Below, piece by piece: positions 25,186 to 29,473 of a stretch of 44,487 nucleotides of DNA. The DNA is taken from positions 1-44,487 of IMG/VR virus record IMGVR_UViG_2718218131_000009; one strand, 5' to 3'. The position numbers and the translations under genes were made by a program. Every line of letters starts with the position of its first letter. The stretch's first letter is position 1. Under the pieces are notes generated by a model that saw only the letters and a program-made list of their open reading frames with translations, was not told the origin of the DNA and made no database searches. Origin of the DNA: a virus (taxonomy: Duplodnaviria; Heunggongvirae; Uroviricota; Caudoviricetes).

Positions 25186-25668
25186 TTAGTTCAGGCACTG
25201 AGTGCGGATATAGTCCTGTGCCCCTTCCAGCTGCTTCTGCATTGTCATCAACCGTTCTCTGAGGATGAAATAATCCCGTTCAGCGGTGTCTGCCAGTCGG
25301 GGGCTGGTTGCATTATCCACGCTGGTGGGTCCGGTGGCTTCACGCACGGCTGCGGAGCAACTGGCATTGACCCGCAGGCGCTTACGACCAGCGGCAACAT
25401 CAGCGCGCAGAGTTTCATTTTCAGCTTTCGCATTGGCTAATTCTCTCGAGTACTTTGCATCGAGCGCAGCAACATCACGCTGACGCTGTTGCATGTCAGC
25501 GATGGTGGCAGTCGCCTGCTTCAGCTCACTGACTTTTTTATCACGCTGTTCTTTGTAGGCGATGGCGTTATCACGGTAATGATTGACCGCCCACGACAGG
25601 CAGACGATGGTGCAGATAACCAGAGTATAAATAATCGCTGCGACTCTGCTCACTGATCTATCCCCCAA
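25186..25668 (-). CDS. i-spanin Rz
   Basis: N-terminal transmembrane segment and coiled-coil periplasmic domain. The Rz1 ORF is embedded in the +1 frame. Confidence 0.85.
25248..25433 (-). CDS. o-spanin Rz1 (lipoprotein)
   Basis: Embedded in Rz. Lipobox VVSAC and Pro-rich mature region. Confidence 0.8.
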
Positions 25669-26183
25669 CAGGCTAATGCACTTTCCTGGTCACGACGAAT
25701 AACCTGTCCATAGCAGTTATTTGAACGTATGCGGCAATCGCGCCCACCATCTTTTATCCACCAGCGAATCGCCTCGCATGCACCTTTACGATCACCAGCA
25801 TTCAGCCGCTTATAAAACGTCGACGGGAAACACTTACCGGGGCCAATGTTATAGGGACAAAATGACGCTATACCCGCTTTCTGTGGTTCGGTCAGTGGTA
25901 CTTTAATATTGCGCTCCACCCATGCCAGCGCCTTATCACGTTCAATAGCGTTAACCTGGTCGCATTTTTCCTTCGACAGCTTCATTCCCGGTATGACGGG
26001 CTTTCCATCCACCATTGTGGCACCACGACAGATGGTCCAGATGCCGGAACCATCGCGGTATGCCGTGGTATGGTTACCTTCCTTTTCATTCAGAAACTGG
26101 TCGAGAATATCAGGCGCGGGCGCACCGACGGCAATCAGTGCCAGAACGGCAGCCGACAGGCCGTATCTGATTTTTGCGTTCAT
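25650..26183 (-). CDS. SAR endolysin (T4-lysozyme family)
   Basis: Catalytic E-x8-D-x5-T triad ([16 protein letters not shown]) preceded by a weakly hydrophobic Gly/Ala-rich signal-anchor-release segment. Confidence 0.9.
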
Positions 26184-26601: not shown

Positions 26602-26817
26602 TTACTCTCCCCGTGCAGCCTTACGCTTGTCTTCTTTAATCTTGAAATAAAGATTTGTCAGATACGTCAGCAGGCCAAACACCAGACTACCCAGCACACC
26701 TATTGCCGCCCACTGTGAGGGCGTGACTTTATCGAGCAACTGTAAAAACCAGTACCCGGCACTACCTGCTGAGGTGCCATAGGCGACACCCGTTGTTAAC
26801 TTATCCATGGATTTCAT
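26602..26817 (-). CDS. Class II pinholin (S21-like)
   Basis: 71 aa. [26 protein letters not shown]... is close to phage 21 S, including the dual-start Met1/Met4 motif. Confidence 0.85.
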
Positions 26818-26884
26818 AACCCCACCTCGCAGATGCGGGTGCTGTGTAATGGAAATAAAAAGGCCACCTGACGTGGCCACCAGA

Positions 26885-27937
26885 TTATTTCCCCACCAGC
26901 TCGTTTATCTCTTTCACTGTCTGGTTAAACCGCTCTGACTCAAGCTCAACACCTAATGCCCGACGCCCCAGCGCCATTGCTGCTTTTATTGTGGAACCGG
27001 ATCCCATAAAAAAATCAGCAACCAGATCACCTGGTCGACTACTGGCATTGATTATTTGCCTGAGCATATCCGCCGGTTTCTCACACGGATGTTTCCCCGG
27101 GTAGAACTGAACGGGTTTATGCATCCAGACATCGGTATAAGGCACGGAGACTGATACGGAGAAATAGCGCCGGAGAGATTTAAACTCATCCAGCAATTCA
27201 GAATATTTACGATTCAGTGAATCATAAGATGCCACCAGCTGGTGGTGTGGTTGTTCCAGTTGTTGTTCCTGAAACTTCTCTGCCGCTATACGGGAAAACA
27301 GTGCCTGTAACTTCCGATAGTCAGCCTCATTCGGCAACTGCCACTGACTGGCACCAAACCAGTGGGAAACCATATTTTTCTTACCTGTGGCTTCGGCAAT
27401 TTGTTTTGCCGTTATACCCAGTTCGGCACGAGCATCCCTGAAATACGATATCAGCGGTGCCATTATGTGCTGTTTGAGTTCCCTTTCTTTTGCTGCATAG
27501 CCGTCACTTTTGCCGCGATATGGCCCCTGGTAATGTTCAGCAAACAGAACGCGCTCTGTGGCAGGAAAATATGCACGCAGACTTTCTTTATTACACCCAT
27601 TCCAACGTCCGGACGGCTTCGCCCAGATGATATGGTTAAGCACGTTGAAACGTTCACGCATCATGATCTCAATATCAGATGCCAGGCGATGCCCACAGAA
27701 CAGGTAAAGGCTTCCGGCAGGTTTTAACACCCGCCAGAACTGGGCCAGACAGTGGTCCAGCCACTTAAGGTAATCTTCGTCCCCTTTCCACTGATTGTCC
27801 CAGCCGTTGGGTTTCACCTTGAAGTACGGCGGATCGGTAACAATCAGGTCAATGGAATCATCAGGCAGGGACTGAATAAAATGCAGGCAATCAGCGTTGA
27901 TTAAATCAACACTGTTTATTTTTACAGTATTTTTCAT
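26885..27937 (-). CDS. DNA methyltransferase (beta-class N6-adenine/N4-cytosine), orphan
   Basis: Motif IV DPPY near the N-terminus and motif I FMGSGST near the C-terminus. No adjacent restriction endonuclease gene. Confidence 0.85.
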
Positions 27938-28087: not shown

Positions 28088-28315
28088 TTACTGGCAGCGT
28101 CTGAATTTATTCCCGTACCCGCCGTTATCCTTCGCCAGACCCGCCAGAACTAACTGAGTCAGTATTAACTGGCACCGGGCTTCGCTTACTCCGGTAGTTC
28201 TCGTCATCATGCGTGGCGTTACCCACTTGTCAGCAGGTAAGAAATGAAGGACTGCGGCGGCGGTTTCTGTCATATCTTGCTGTTTTAGCATGTCTTTTTC
28301 CCTTCTGGTTAACAT
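28088..28315 (-). CDS. Hypothetical small protein
   Basis: 75-aa ORF between the methyltransferase and the Q-proximal region. No recognised motif. Confidence 0.4.
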   Translation of the reverse strand: MLTRREKDMLKQQDMTETAAAVLHFLPADKWVTPRMMTRTTGVSEARCQLILTQLVLAGLAKDNGGYGNKFRRCQ

Positions 28316-28561
28316 GACATACCAATAACTCTTGTCTAAAAAGCCAGCAAGATAAAAGGTCAGTATTCACGACCACCAGCGTGTTTACTGTACTGCACCA
28401 AGTTTACAGGTACAAAAAAACCGCTCAGCGGCGGGTTTAAGTTGTGTGGCGAAGTAACCACTCTTAACAGCATATTTGATTTTTTACGATTGTAAACGGT
28501 TGATTATTCATCTCCAATAAAAATAATTGTGTAGGTATGCCCTTAACAATGGATAAGAAAC

Positions 28562-29008
28562 ATGAATAAAATGACTGTACTATTACTTAGCGCAACTATC
28601 ATTTCAGGTTGTACTTCTTCCGTACCATTGATAAAAAAAACTCAATCAGGAAAACCTGAGGGGGTTTATCAAAATACGACAAAAGATAAAGTCAAAGATG
28701 CCCTTGTGAATTACTGCAATAGTAGAGGGTTGATAATTTACAACGCTGATAACAGCAGTGTTATATGTGGTAAAGAACTGGAAGGCGGGTCTGCTGTTTT
28801 TGGACAAATGTTAATCGGCAATGCCTATTCAACAACCCCGGTATCAAAAGTCAGATTTACTATCGCTCAAGTTAATAACGATACAAAAGTGTGGGCCGAT
28901 ATGTGGATGGAAACTCAAATGGCAATGGGGCAAGTACAACAAATGGCTATAACAGACAACGCAAGCAAAAACACTATCCAACAACGTCTTGATGAATTAA
29001 AACCTTAA
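28562..29008 (+). CDS. Lipoprotein (moron)
   Basis: Signal peptide with lipobox ISGC. AT-rich, on the strand opposite to the late operon, followed by a hairpin terminator. Confidence 0.7.
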   Translation: MNKMTVLLLSATIISGCTSSVPLIKKTQSGKPEGVYQNTTKDKVKDALVNYCNSRGLIIYNADNSSVICGKELEGGSAVFGQMLIGNAYSTTPVSKVRFTIAQVNNDTKVWADMWMETQMAMGQVQQMAITDNASKNTIQQRLDELKP

Positions 29009-29028
29009 GTAAATTAATTAAATAAAAT

Positions 29029-29050
29029 GGGGAGAATAAATCGACTCCCC
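29029..29050. terminator. Hairpin terminator between the lipoprotein gene and Q
   Basis: GGGGAG-n10-CTCCCC stem with a U-rich tract on the minus strand and a weaker one on the plus strand. Confidence 0.45.
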
Positions 29051-29092
29051 ACACATTAAACTGATTCAATTACCCCCTCAATAAGAGGTCTT

Positions 29093-29473
29093 CTAACGAT
29101 CCATCTCTAGCTCAATTTCTAACATCATTAACATGCCATCAACTACACCTTCAGCCTTTTGCAATAAACGCCCAACCCAGCAATCAGAACGCCCATGTTT
29201 ACGGGCAAGCGCCATAAACGTCATACCACCTACATAATAATCCACTAATAAATCGTGCAAATCGCTGTTGTTCTTTTTCAGGCGAGCCATGCACCCACAA
29301 ATGATCATCGCATCATCGTCACAACATTGCGGGCGGGATTTTACTTTTGAAGGGATTAGTCCTTTAAATCCTGCAGCAATAGACGACCAGGTGACATCCT
29401 CGTGATTATTTGCCACCCATGCCCCCCAACGTTCAAGAACCATTTGAATATCACGCATCAACGTTCTCCACAA
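29093..29473 (-). CDS. Late-gene antiterminator Q (phage 82/21 type)
   Basis: [14 protein letters not shown]...[18 protein letters not shown] matches the QuuD-type Q family. Located upstream of the lysis genes. Confidence 0.8.

What the first reader, a model, noticed from the sequence alone, without database searches (positions are those of the whole stretch)
28562..29008. Opposite-strand lipoprotein moron inserted next to antiterminator Q
An AT-rich gene encoding a 148-aa lipoprotein (lipobox ISGC) is transcribed against the late operon between Q and the downstream late genes, with its own hairpin terminator. This is the position where lambdoid phages carry lysogenic-conversion genes such as stx or bor. 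I do not recognise the protein as Bor or any other known family.
Basis: partly seen in the sequence, partly recalled or inferred. Interest (0 to 1): 0.5.

Follow-up and report, generated by a model that had tools for sequence, protein, structure and literature searches.

The report
Uncharacterised prophage lipoprotein moron beside Q
This is a real, horizontally acquired gene for an outer-membrane-type lipoprotein of an unstudied family, sitting in a known cargo slot next to the antiterminator gene Q of an E. coli lambdoid prophage; its relatives mostly sit among phage tail-tip genes, so blocking entry of other phages is the likeliest but untested role.

Summary
Window 28562..29008 (+) encodes a 148-aa protein with a textbook lipoprotein signal (lipobox IISG|C17). 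It is AT-rich (GC 0.38 against 0.51) and lies on the opposite strand between Q (29093..29473, -) and the late genes.

Two details need correction. Comparison with relatives places the late promoter and terminator (pR'/tR') at about 28497..28413 (-). The cassette therefore lies upstream of the late operon: convergent with Q and divergent from pR'. The hairpin at 29029..29051 has its T-tract only on the Q strand.

The protein matches PHROG 3152 (unknown function) and has no Pfam, NCBIfam or PADLOC family. It is not Bor, Cor or Llp. An exhaustive search finds about 820 representative clusters. The AF2 model (pLDDT 85) shows only a generic BamC/KA1/TBP-like alpha+beta fold.

The cassette occurs in 184 of 5426 complete E. 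coli genomes, and always beside this Q in every copy whose context was examined. Related prophages hold other opposite-strand cargo in the same slot: a porin, a lipocalin lipoprotein and an OLD-like defence nuclease.

Divergent homologues (40-72% identity) lie mostly inside tail-tip modules (TMP|M, M|L, K|I), usually with their own terminators.

Best reading: a lysogen-expressed envelope moron, most plausibly superinfection exclusion. That function is inferred. It is a new member of a known kind and of moderate interest.

The parts
28562..29008 (+). Lipoprotein gene, 148 aa. Signal peptide is residues 1-16, lipobox is I14-S15-G16-C17, and the mature protein is 132 aa (about 14.5 kDa, pI 8.5). 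Cys52 and Cys69 are conserved.
   Evidence: ORF. PHROG 3152 full-length match, E 1e-104. C17 is invariant and C52/C69 are at least 90% conserved across 65 diverse members. pN/pS is about 0.18. AF2 model has pLDDT 85.
28498..29098 (.). The whole inserted cassette, about 600 bp and low in GC. It is bounded by the Q stop codon on the right and the pR' -35 element on the left.
   Evidence: Homology to related-Q phages stops at 29099 and resumes at 28497 (alignment A2). GC profile. The segment is 100% identical in phages PhiR40_1 and PhiR55_1.
28500..28527 (+). Candidate sigma-70 promoter for the lipoprotein gene: TTGATT-N16-AATAAT, 9 of 12 matches. It lies back-to-back with pR'. The predicted 5' UTR is about 27 nt, with a GGA Shine-Dalgarno core at 28551-28553.
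   Evidence: Consensus scan only. The upstream region is not conserved among homologues. This part is inferred, not shown.
29029..29051 (.). Hairpin GGGGAG-N10-CTCCCC between the converging lipoprotein and Q genes. The T-tract is only on the - strand.
   Evidence: flags a terminator-like site on the - strand only. One search gives -11.2 kcal/mol for the + strand and -24.1 kcal/mol (z -2.8) for the - strand context. One search finds no + strand terminator.
28413..28497 (-). Inferred late promoter pR' (-35 TTTACA at 28496..28491, -10 TATGCT at 28474..28469), a short leader, and the tR' terminator (28432..28420 plus T7).
   Evidence: The block is 85% conserved in mEp332 and PhiR29_1, which carry related Q genes. 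Phages with unrelated Q (Ayreon, Stx2c phages) share only the terminator and the DNA downstream of it.
29093..29473 (-). Antiterminator Q of the Q21 family. It is the constant right-hand neighbour of the cassette in E. coli.
   Evidence: PF06530, E 2e-51. Matches PDB 6P18/6JNX Q protein, E 7.5e-9. Every E. coli-clade IMG/VR copy with DNA on that side has Q downstream.

Best explanation
The feature is a moron-type accessory cassette. It is a horizontally acquired, low-GC, single-gene unit dropped into the variable cargo slot between the Q21-family antiterminator gene and its late promoter pR'.

It encodes a Sec/SPase-II lipoprotein. Residue +2 is Thr (Ala in most homologues), never Asp, so the E. 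coli Lol sorting rule predicts transfer to the outer membrane. The mature 132-residue domain is a compact alpha+beta sandwich, probably with a C52-C69 disulfide.

The gene lies upstream of pR' and faces the early rightward transcript. It must therefore be read from its own promoter, and it should be freest to express in the repressed prophage.

Most likely function (inferred): the lipoprotein changes the cell envelope so that superinfecting siphophages cannot complete entry. This would be superinfection exclusion at the outer-membrane or periplasmic stage of tail-tip penetration. It would be analogous to Cor, Llp or HK97 gp15 but unrelated to them in sequence.

Shown: the gene, the lipobox, the conservation, the slot and the contexts. 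Inferred: the promoter, expression in the lysogen, outer-membrane localisation and the exclusion function.
For: Gene and lipoprotein.

Foreign origin: low GC in the window and in homologue loci (0.39-0.44 against 0.51-0.56).

The slot is a cargo hotspot. Related prophages carry other opposite-strand genes at the same place:
- a porin, NmpC/OmpD;
- a lipocalin lipoprotein;
- an OLD-like ATPase-Toprim nuclease matching defence candidate HEC-04, E 4e-47;
- a DUF6731 gene pair in phage cdtI.
The cargo is thus envelope or defence genes. A porin moron is reported as expressed from the repressed LF82 prophage Perceval (PMC9928086); whether it occupies this same slot was not checked.

Linkage to the entry machinery: homologues at 40-72% identity lie on the same strand inside tail-tip modules, at several different junctions. 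These are K|I, TMP|M, M|L, a Proteus-type tail module, and just before TMP. They occur in Salmonella, Jejubacter, Citrobacter, Morganella, Proteus, Photorhabdus, Xenorhabdus and Haemophilus-type prophages. 14 of 21 distinct loci have a canonical terminator just after the gene. The original moron, HK97 gp15, has this architecture: it lies in the tail operon and excludes superinfecting phages (PMC3594210).

Lysogeny-associated: among 50,697 isolated phage genomes only two temperate phages carry it, while IMG/VR prophage-type contigs carry many copies.

No partner gene is conserved across contexts, so it probably acts alone.
Against: - There are no expression or phenotype data, and no literature on the protein.
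- The J receptor-binding C-termini of carrier phages are unrelated. A Cor/Llp-style block of each phage's own receptor is therefore not supported.
- Motifs conserved across very distant taxa (SGxPE, GNxYSTTP, ETQMxxGQ) fit a conserved bacterial target better than an arms-race interface.
- The wider family also has chromosomal members, some fused to PDZ or TPR domains and sitting in non-phage contexts. That suggests a general periplasmic role.
- The tail-module junctions that hold it are themselves moron hotspots carrying other cargo (L006, L017). The linkage could therefore be partly positional.
- The promoter is only a 9-of-12 consensus match.
Confidence: 0.4

Rival explanations
1. A host-fitness or virulence factor of the Bor/Iss type. 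The outer-membrane lipoprotein would improve serum resistance, adhesion or survival in an animal host.
For: - It is an outer-membrane-type lipoprotein in an accessory position of a lambdoid prophage.
- It is present in uropathogenic UTI89 and in O157:H7 prophages.
- The same window also carries lom.
Against: - No match to the Bor family.
- Close homologues occur in insect and nematode symbionts (Photorhabdus, Xenorhabdus), in plant-associated Phytobacter and Kosakonia, and in Halomonas. A mammal-specific role is therefore unlikely to be the family's function.
- The recurrent placement among tail-tip genes is not explained.
Confidence: 0.15
2. A general periplasmic or outer-membrane housekeeping-type lipoprotein domain. 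It would bind a conserved envelope component such as peptidoglycan, an OMP-assembly or Lpt/Tol factor, or a lipid. Phages would carry it because it buffers envelope stress in the lysogen or during lysis, with no role in phage exclusion.
For: - The family is large, with about 820 clusters at 50% identity.
- Motifs are strongly conserved across distant members.
- Some relatives are fused to PDZ, TPR/YfiO-like or SHOCT domains, and some are plainly chromosomal.
- The fold resembles BamC domains, other TBP-like lipoproteins and lipid-binding KA1/SRPBCC domains.
Against: - No gene neighbourhood is conserved that would tie it to any envelope pathway.
- The clade at 40% identity or more to the query (Enterobacterales plus Haemophilus-type loci) is almost entirely on mobile elements.
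- The structural matches are weak and generic.
Confidence: 0.25
3. A lytic-cycle function for the phage itself. One possibility is masking receptors on lysed-cell debris so that progeny are not inactivated, as proposed for T5 Llp. Another is modulating lysis.
For: - In most homologue loci the gene lies on the same strand inside the Q-antiterminated late tail operon, so it would be co-expressed late.
- PHROG scans give very weak signal-peptide-level hits to Rz1-like spanins (E 0.02-0.04).
Against: - In this window it is upstream of pR' and antisense to early transcription, so it is not in any lytic transcript.
- The window has its own Rz-type gene: the 25186..25668 (-) ORF corresponds to the 'endopeptidase Rz' annotated in PhiR40_1.
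- The family is absent from virulent phages in the isolate collection.
- The J receptor-binding domains of carrier phages differ.
Confidence: 0.1
4. The main effect is regulatory. Transcription of the cassette runs into Q from the opposite direction, because the + strand lacks a proper terminator. This would damp leaky Q expression, like the lambda paQ antisense transcript, and the protein would be secondary.
For: - The gene converges on Q.
- The intervening hairpin has no T-tract on the + strand.
Against: - The protein is under purifying selection and is conserved at 50-72% identity in contexts with no Q nearby.
- Unrelated cargo genes occupy the same slot.
Confidence: 0.05

Closest known systems
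HK97 gp15 moron, a superinfection-exclusion protein encoded in the tail operon (PMC3594210)
   Same: - A single small envelope-protein gene of foreign GC content.
- Inserted between tail genes; this is true of most homologues of the present gene.
- Carries its own terminator.
- Has bacterial relatives outside phages.
   Different: - gp15 is an inner-membrane YebO-like protein, not a lipoprotein, and there is no sequence relationship.
- The copy in this window is beside Q, not in the tail operon.
- An exclusion function is not shown here.
Cor (phi80, N15, HK022) and Llp (T5), the receptor-blocking lipoproteins
   Same: - Small phage-encoded outer-membrane-type lipoproteins.
- From general knowledge, their genes are linked to tail or receptor-binding genes. 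Homologues of this gene are likewise embedded in tail-tip modules.
   Different: - No sequence match: no named exclusion family appears in the PHROG scan.
- The mature protein is about twice their size.
- Carrier phages have unrelated J receptor-binding domains.
- The E. coli copy is not linked to tail genes.
Lambda Bor / Iss serum-resistance lipoprotein
   Same: A prophage-encoded outer-membrane lipoprotein on the strand opposite to the late genes of a lambdoid phage.
   Different: - No match to the Bor family in Pfam.
- The slot differs: from general knowledge, bor follows Rz, whereas this gene lies between Q and pR'.
- The host range of the family extends well beyond mammalian pathogens.
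The nmpC/lc/ompD porin genes of DLP12- and PA-2-type prophages
   Same: They occupy exactly the same slot in the same orientation: opposite strand, between a related Q21-family Q gene and pR'. They are also envelope proteins.
   Different: They are 16-strand porins, not lipoproteins, and there is no homology.
BamC helix-grip domains and other TBP-like or DUF4468/DUF3568 lipoproteins
   Different: - Sequence identity is 6-15%, and no Foldseek match has an E-value below 6e-3.
- KA1 and SRPBCC domains score as well or better, so the resemblance is at the level of fold class only.

Membership tests
Moron (Juhala/Hendrix sense) | An extra gene that is absent from the same position in related phages | tested here: met
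   Related-Q phages carry different cargo between Q and pR'. Homology breaks at 28497 and 29099.
Moron (Juhala/Hendrix sense) | Base composition different from the surrounding phage genes | tested here: met
   Gene GC is 0.38 against 0.51 for the window. Homologues are 0.39-0.44 against 0.51-0.56.
Moron (Juhala/Hendrix sense) | Own promoter | tested here: inconclusive
   Only a 9-of-12 consensus match at 28500-28527. No promoter is conserved across homologues.
Moron (Juhala/Hendrix sense) | Own terminator | tested here: inconclusive
   The window has a hairpin at 29029-29051, but its T-tract is on the Q strand only. 14 of 21 distinct homologue loci do have a canonical terminator.
Moron (Juhala/Hendrix sense) | Expression from the repressed prophage | not testable with these tools
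   Needs RNA-seq or a reporter assay on a lysogen.
Bacterial lipoprotein (SPase II substrate) | A positive n-region, a hydrophobic h-region, and a lipobox [LVI][ASTVI][GAS]C with an invariant Cys | tested here: met
   MNK-MTVLLLSATI-ISGC. C17 is the only invariant column among 65 diverse members. Three members hit Pfam LPAM_1.
Bacterial lipoprotein (SPase II substrate) | Actual lipidation and outer-membrane sorting | not testable with these tools
   Outer-membrane sorting is inferred only from the absence of Asp at position +2 and the E. coli Lol rule.
PHROG 3152 | A full-length profile match | tested here: met
   E 1.3e-104, residues 1-148 against profile positions 1-148 of 148. The family has no known function.
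Bor/Iss (lambda Bor family) | Sequence match to the family profile | tested here: not met
   The Pfam scan at E up to 0.1 lists only chance hits to SapB_1 and SUR7.
Cor / Llp receptor-blocking lipoproteins | Sequence or structural similarity to Cor or Llp | tested here: not met
Cor / Llp receptor-blocking lipoproteins | Gene linked to the tail or receptor-binding genes of the carrier phage | tested here: inconclusive
   Met for most homologues. Not met for this window, where the gene is beside Q. The J C-termini of carriers are unrelated.
Cor / Llp receptor-blocking lipoproteins | Blocks adsorption or DNA entry of phages | not testable with these tools
   Needs plating, adsorption and injection assays.

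The most novel reading that the evidence does not exclude
PHROG 3152 would be the phage branch of a large, unnamed family of Gram-negative outer-membrane lipoproteins. Siphophage prophages would have repeatedly recruited it into their tail-tip modules as a new class of superinfection-exclusion factor. It would act on a conserved periplasmic step of lambda-like tail-tip penetration, for example tape-measure or gpK passage through the wall, and not on a particular receptor. This would explain why carriers with unrelated J receptor-binding domains share it.
Probability: 0.2. Interest if true: 0.6.

Novelty: new member of a known kind. Interest (0 to 1): 0.4.

Why it matters
If the exclusion role is real, it adds a widespread, unnamed lipoprotein family to the short list of envelope-level phage-exclusion proteins (Cor, Llp, gp15, SieA). 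The cassette is in about 3% of complete E. coli genomes, including UTI89 and O157 prophages, and the family has hundreds of relatives across Proteobacteria. The protein could affect the host range of therapeutic phages.

The work also defines the Q|pR' junction of Q21-type lambdoid prophages as an exchangeable slot for opposite-strand cargo. So far it holds a porin, two kinds of lipoprotein, an OLD-like nuclease and a DUF6731 gene pair. The slot could be mined for further defence or envelope genes.

If the protein turns out to be a neutral envelope passenger, the finding is routine prophage mosaicism.

Tried and rejected
- Named families: the Pfam, NCBIfam and PADLOC scans of the protein gave nothing. 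Scanning all 65 diverse members against Pfam gave only the lipid-attachment-site model.
- PDB sequence searches with two profiles gave only signal-peptide-level noise.
- BFVD viral structures: no match better than E 3e-3, with low TM-scores. Foldseek against PDB: nothing better than E 6e-3. The afdb50 library was unavailable.
- The UniRef name 'Type IV secretion system putative lipoprotein virB7' on the Xenorhabdus homologue was rejected. I take it to be a rule-based lipoprotein label; no T4SS genes appeared in any context examined, though that homologue's own contig was not examined.
- Cognate-receptor blocking was tested by comparing J proteins of carrier phages. The C-terminal domains are unrelated, so there is no support.
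- The 147-aa gene in the same slot of phage cdtI was tested as a possible homologue. It is unrelated and is a membrane protein.
- A search for a promoter conserved across homologues found none.
- Literature searches by accession and PHROG number returned nothing. The LF82 moron transcriptome paper does not cover this gene.
- A genome-collection scan with the broad alignment failed for lack of a conserved stretch. It was repeated with the closer alignment.
- 'Not a real gene' was rejected on conservation and purifying selection.

Full report
**1. The observation**

Window 28562..29008 on the + strand encodes 148 aa beginning MNKMTVLLLSATIISGCTSS. Every phage gene around it is on the - strand:
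- lysozyme, 25650..26183;
- a YdfR-like ORF;
- holin, 26602..26880;
- a DNA methyltransferase, 26885..27937;
- a 75-aa protein of PHROG 331, 28088..28315;
- on the other side, Q at 29093..29473 (PF06530, E 2e-51) and a DUF968 protein.

GC drops to 0.33-0.39 over 28300-29200, against about 0.5 on both flanks. The gene is 0.38 and the window is 0.51. The N-terminus has a positive n-region, a hydrophobic core and the lipobox I-S-G-C17.

The gene is real:
- Full-length homologues at 50-72% identity occur in Salmonella, Jejubacter, Citrobacter, Xenorhabdus, Enterobacter, Phytobacter and Morganella.
- Cys17 is the only invariant column in an alignment of 65 diverse members, and C52 and C69 are at least 90% conserved.
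- Thirteen E. coli alleles show no stop codon and a crude pN/pS of about 0.18.

**2. Where exactly it sits**

The 800 bp around the gene are 100% identical in the temperate phages PhiR40_1 and PhiR55_1, where the gene is annotated 'hypothetical protein'.

The cassette is present in 184 of 5426 complete E. coli genomes, including UTI89 and an O157:H7 strain. In every E. coli-clade IMG/VR copy with DNA on that side, the right neighbour is this Q gene.

Comparison with phages that carry a related Q (mEp332 and PhiR29_1, about 83-85% identical) shows that homology stops at the Q stop codon (29099) and resumes at 28497-28415. The resumed block reads on the - strand as follows:
- TTTACA-N16-TATGCT;
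- a leader of roughly 30 nt;
- the terminator CCGCCGCTGAGCGG followed by T7.

Phages with an unrelated Q (Ayreon, Stx2c phages) share only the terminator and the DNA downstream of it. Phage cdtI shares a little more. This is the pattern expected if 28438-28497 is the Q-specific late promoter and loading region. I therefore infer that this block is pR'/tR'. The Q protein belongs to the Q21 family (PDB 6P18/6JNX, E 7.5e-9).

The consequence is that the lipoprotein cassette (about 28498-29098) lies between Q and pR'. It is outside the late operon, convergent with Q and back-to-back with pR'. What it faces is early rightward read-through.

**3. Signals**

A + strand promoter-like site, TTGATT-N16-AATAAT, lies at 28500-28527 (9 of 12 matches). 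It would give a leader of about 27 nt with a GGA Shine-Dalgarno core. This is only a consensus match, and upstream regions are not conserved among homologues.

The hairpin at 29029-29051 is real (-11.2 kcal/mol on the + strand). Its T-run is on the - strand only, where the context folds at -24.1 kcal/mol (z -2.8). My own scan finds no + strand terminator. It is better described as a terminator for the Q transcript that may also slow the converging transcript.

**4. The slot is a cargo hotspot**

Other E. coli prophages and phages carry different genes at the same place and in the same opposite orientation:

| Host phage or strain | Cargo in the Q/pR' slot |
|---|---|
| mEp332, PhiR29_1 | porin NmpC/OmpD |
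| strain PEC145 | lipocalin-family lipoprotein |
| strain H8 | 483-aa ATPase-Toprim (OLD-like) nuclease matching PADLOC defence candidate HEC-04, E 4e-47 |
| phage cdtI | DUF6731 protein plus a small membrane protein |

The Q allele at 95% identity or more is found in 220 genomes, against 184 for the cassette. Linkage is therefore tight but not absolute.

In the O157:H7 example the region downstream has the tRNA/TerB/SASA-family carbohydrate esterase layout that I recall from Stx-type phages. From general knowledge, stx would lie after those tRNAs, so the stx position is a different slot further downstream.

**5. The protein family**

The only named match is PHROG 3152, which is full-length, E 1e-104, and of unknown function. 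Pfam, NCBIfam and PADLOC give nothing, so it is not Bor.

An exhaustive profile search finds 823 representative clusters at E up to 1e-3 and 408 at up to 1e-10. None of 65 diverse members hits a Pfam domain other than the lipid-attachment site. Some distant members carry C-terminal PDZ, TPR/YfiO-like or SHOCT domains.

The AF2 model is confident (pLDDT 85, pTM 0.75). It shows a beta-alpha-beta-beta-alpha-beta-beta-beta-alpha sandwich.
- Foldseek against PDB and BFVD gives nothing better than E 3e-3.

This identifies a fold class common among Gram-negative lipoproteins, not a function. No member has Asp at position +2, so outer-membrane sorting is predicted by the Lol rule. That step is inference.

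**6. Contexts of relatives: the most informative result**

| Position | Loci |
|---|---|
| Between gpK and gpI | Salmonella L005, Morganella L018/L088, L101-L107; Jejubacter L006/L084 within a moron cluster |
| Between the tape-measure gene and gpM | Citrobacter L007, L096-L099, Haemophilus L023, L157/L160 at 40% identity, Photorhabdus L017 |
| Between gpM and gpL | L089, L092 |
| Within a Proteus-type tail module | L020, L093-L095 |
| Just before the tape-measure gene | L100, L164 |

All of these are on the same strand as the tail genes. 14 of 21 distinct loci have a canonical intrinsic terminator immediately after the gene. This is the classical moron architecture.

Non-tail contexts also exist:
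- the nin region of Phytobacter prophages;
- a P1-like Dar operon;
- a mobilisable element with MobA;
- a primase-bearing element;
- a chromosomal PDZ fusion.

No partner gene is shared between contexts. Among 50,697 isolated phage genomes, only the two temperate PhiR phages encode the protein.

**7. Interpretation**

It is secure that this is a horizontally mobile, single-gene accessory cassette encoding a lipoprotein.

For function, I favour envelope-level superinfection exclusion, for four reasons:
- The gene has repeatedly settled among the genes of the entry apparatus.
- The precedent for that location is HK97 gp15, an exclusion protein encoded in the tail operon (PMC3594210).
- The cargo that replaces it in the Q slot is either envelope-modifying or anti-phage.
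- It is confined to temperate elements.

Against a Cor/Llp-type block of the cognate receptor, the J C-terminal domains of carriers are unrelated. If the protein does exclude phages, it more likely acts on a conserved step or a conserved host component.

The strong motif conservation, together with the chromosomal PDZ and TPR relatives, keeps a general periplasmic-binding role alive as the main rival. A Bor-like virulence role fits poorly with the family's presence in insect symbionts, plant associates and Halomonas. A purely regulatory anti-Q role is contradicted by conservation of the protein in loci without Q.

**8. Novelty and score**

The kind of element is well known: a lipoprotein moron in a lambdoid prophage. 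This particular family has no name, no literature and no solved relative. It is a new member of a known kind.

The tail-tip linkage and the definition of the Q|pR' cargo slot are modestly new and directly testable.

Interest is 0.4. Confidence in the structural description is about 0.9. Confidence in the exclusion function is about 0.35-0.4.

Noticed in passing
window 28413-28497 (-): An inferred Q21-type late promoter, short leader and tR' terminator. The block is conserved with mEp332 and PhiR29_1 but not with phages that carry other Q types. PhiR40_1 annotates a 37-aa 'hypothetical protein' over this stretch, which is probably spurious.
   Followed up: partly
L175:864-2315 (E. coli H8), L176:1784-2308 (PEC145), L014:1190-2287 (mEp332), L013:2771-4159 (phage cdtI): The same Q|pR' slot carries other opposite-strand cargo. 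Examples are an OLD-like ATPase-Toprim nuclease matching defence candidate HEC-04, a lipocalin lipoprotein, a porin NmpC/OmpD, and a DUF6731 protein with a small membrane protein. The slot looks like an exchangeable accessory or defence hotspot.
   Followed up: partly
window 673-4077 (+): A 1134-aa ORF that matches DUF4765 over its full length (bit score 1708). It lies beyond the tail-fibre genes and on the strand opposite to them. It is probably another large accessory gene of this prophage.
   Followed up: no
window 6087-6686 (-): An Ail/Lom-family outer-membrane protein gene lies between J and the side tail-fibre gene. It is a second envelope moron in the same prophage.
   Followed up: no
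P0100, P0116, P0117, P0142, P0187 (PDZ); P0106 (TPR/YfiO-like); P0051, P0054, P0056 (Cys-rich C-terminal extension): Distant members of the lipoprotein family carry C-terminal PDZ, TPR, SHOCT or conserved Cys-rich domains. At least one of them (L030) is in an ordinary chromosomal neighbourhood. This hints at a periplasmic protein-binding role for the ancestral domain.
   Followed up: partly
L003 (E. coli O157:H7 NE 1092-2), 2700-5000: In this O157 prophage the cassette precedes a late region laid out like that of an Stx phage, with tRNA-Ile/Arg/Arg, TerB, DUF3927 and a SASA-family carbohydrate esterase, but without stx. The lipoprotein slot and the stx slot are therefore distinct and can coexist.
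   Followed up: no
L006:1903-5904 and L017:4282-7603: The K|I and TMP|M junctions that hold the lipoprotein gene in Jejubacter and Photorhabdus prophages also hold other cargo. In Jejubacter this includes Arc-like repressors, Bro-N and KilA-N proteins. In Photorhabdus there are small paired ORFs that may be a toxin-antitoxin module (not verified). These tail-module junctions are therefore general moron hotspots.
   Followed up: no
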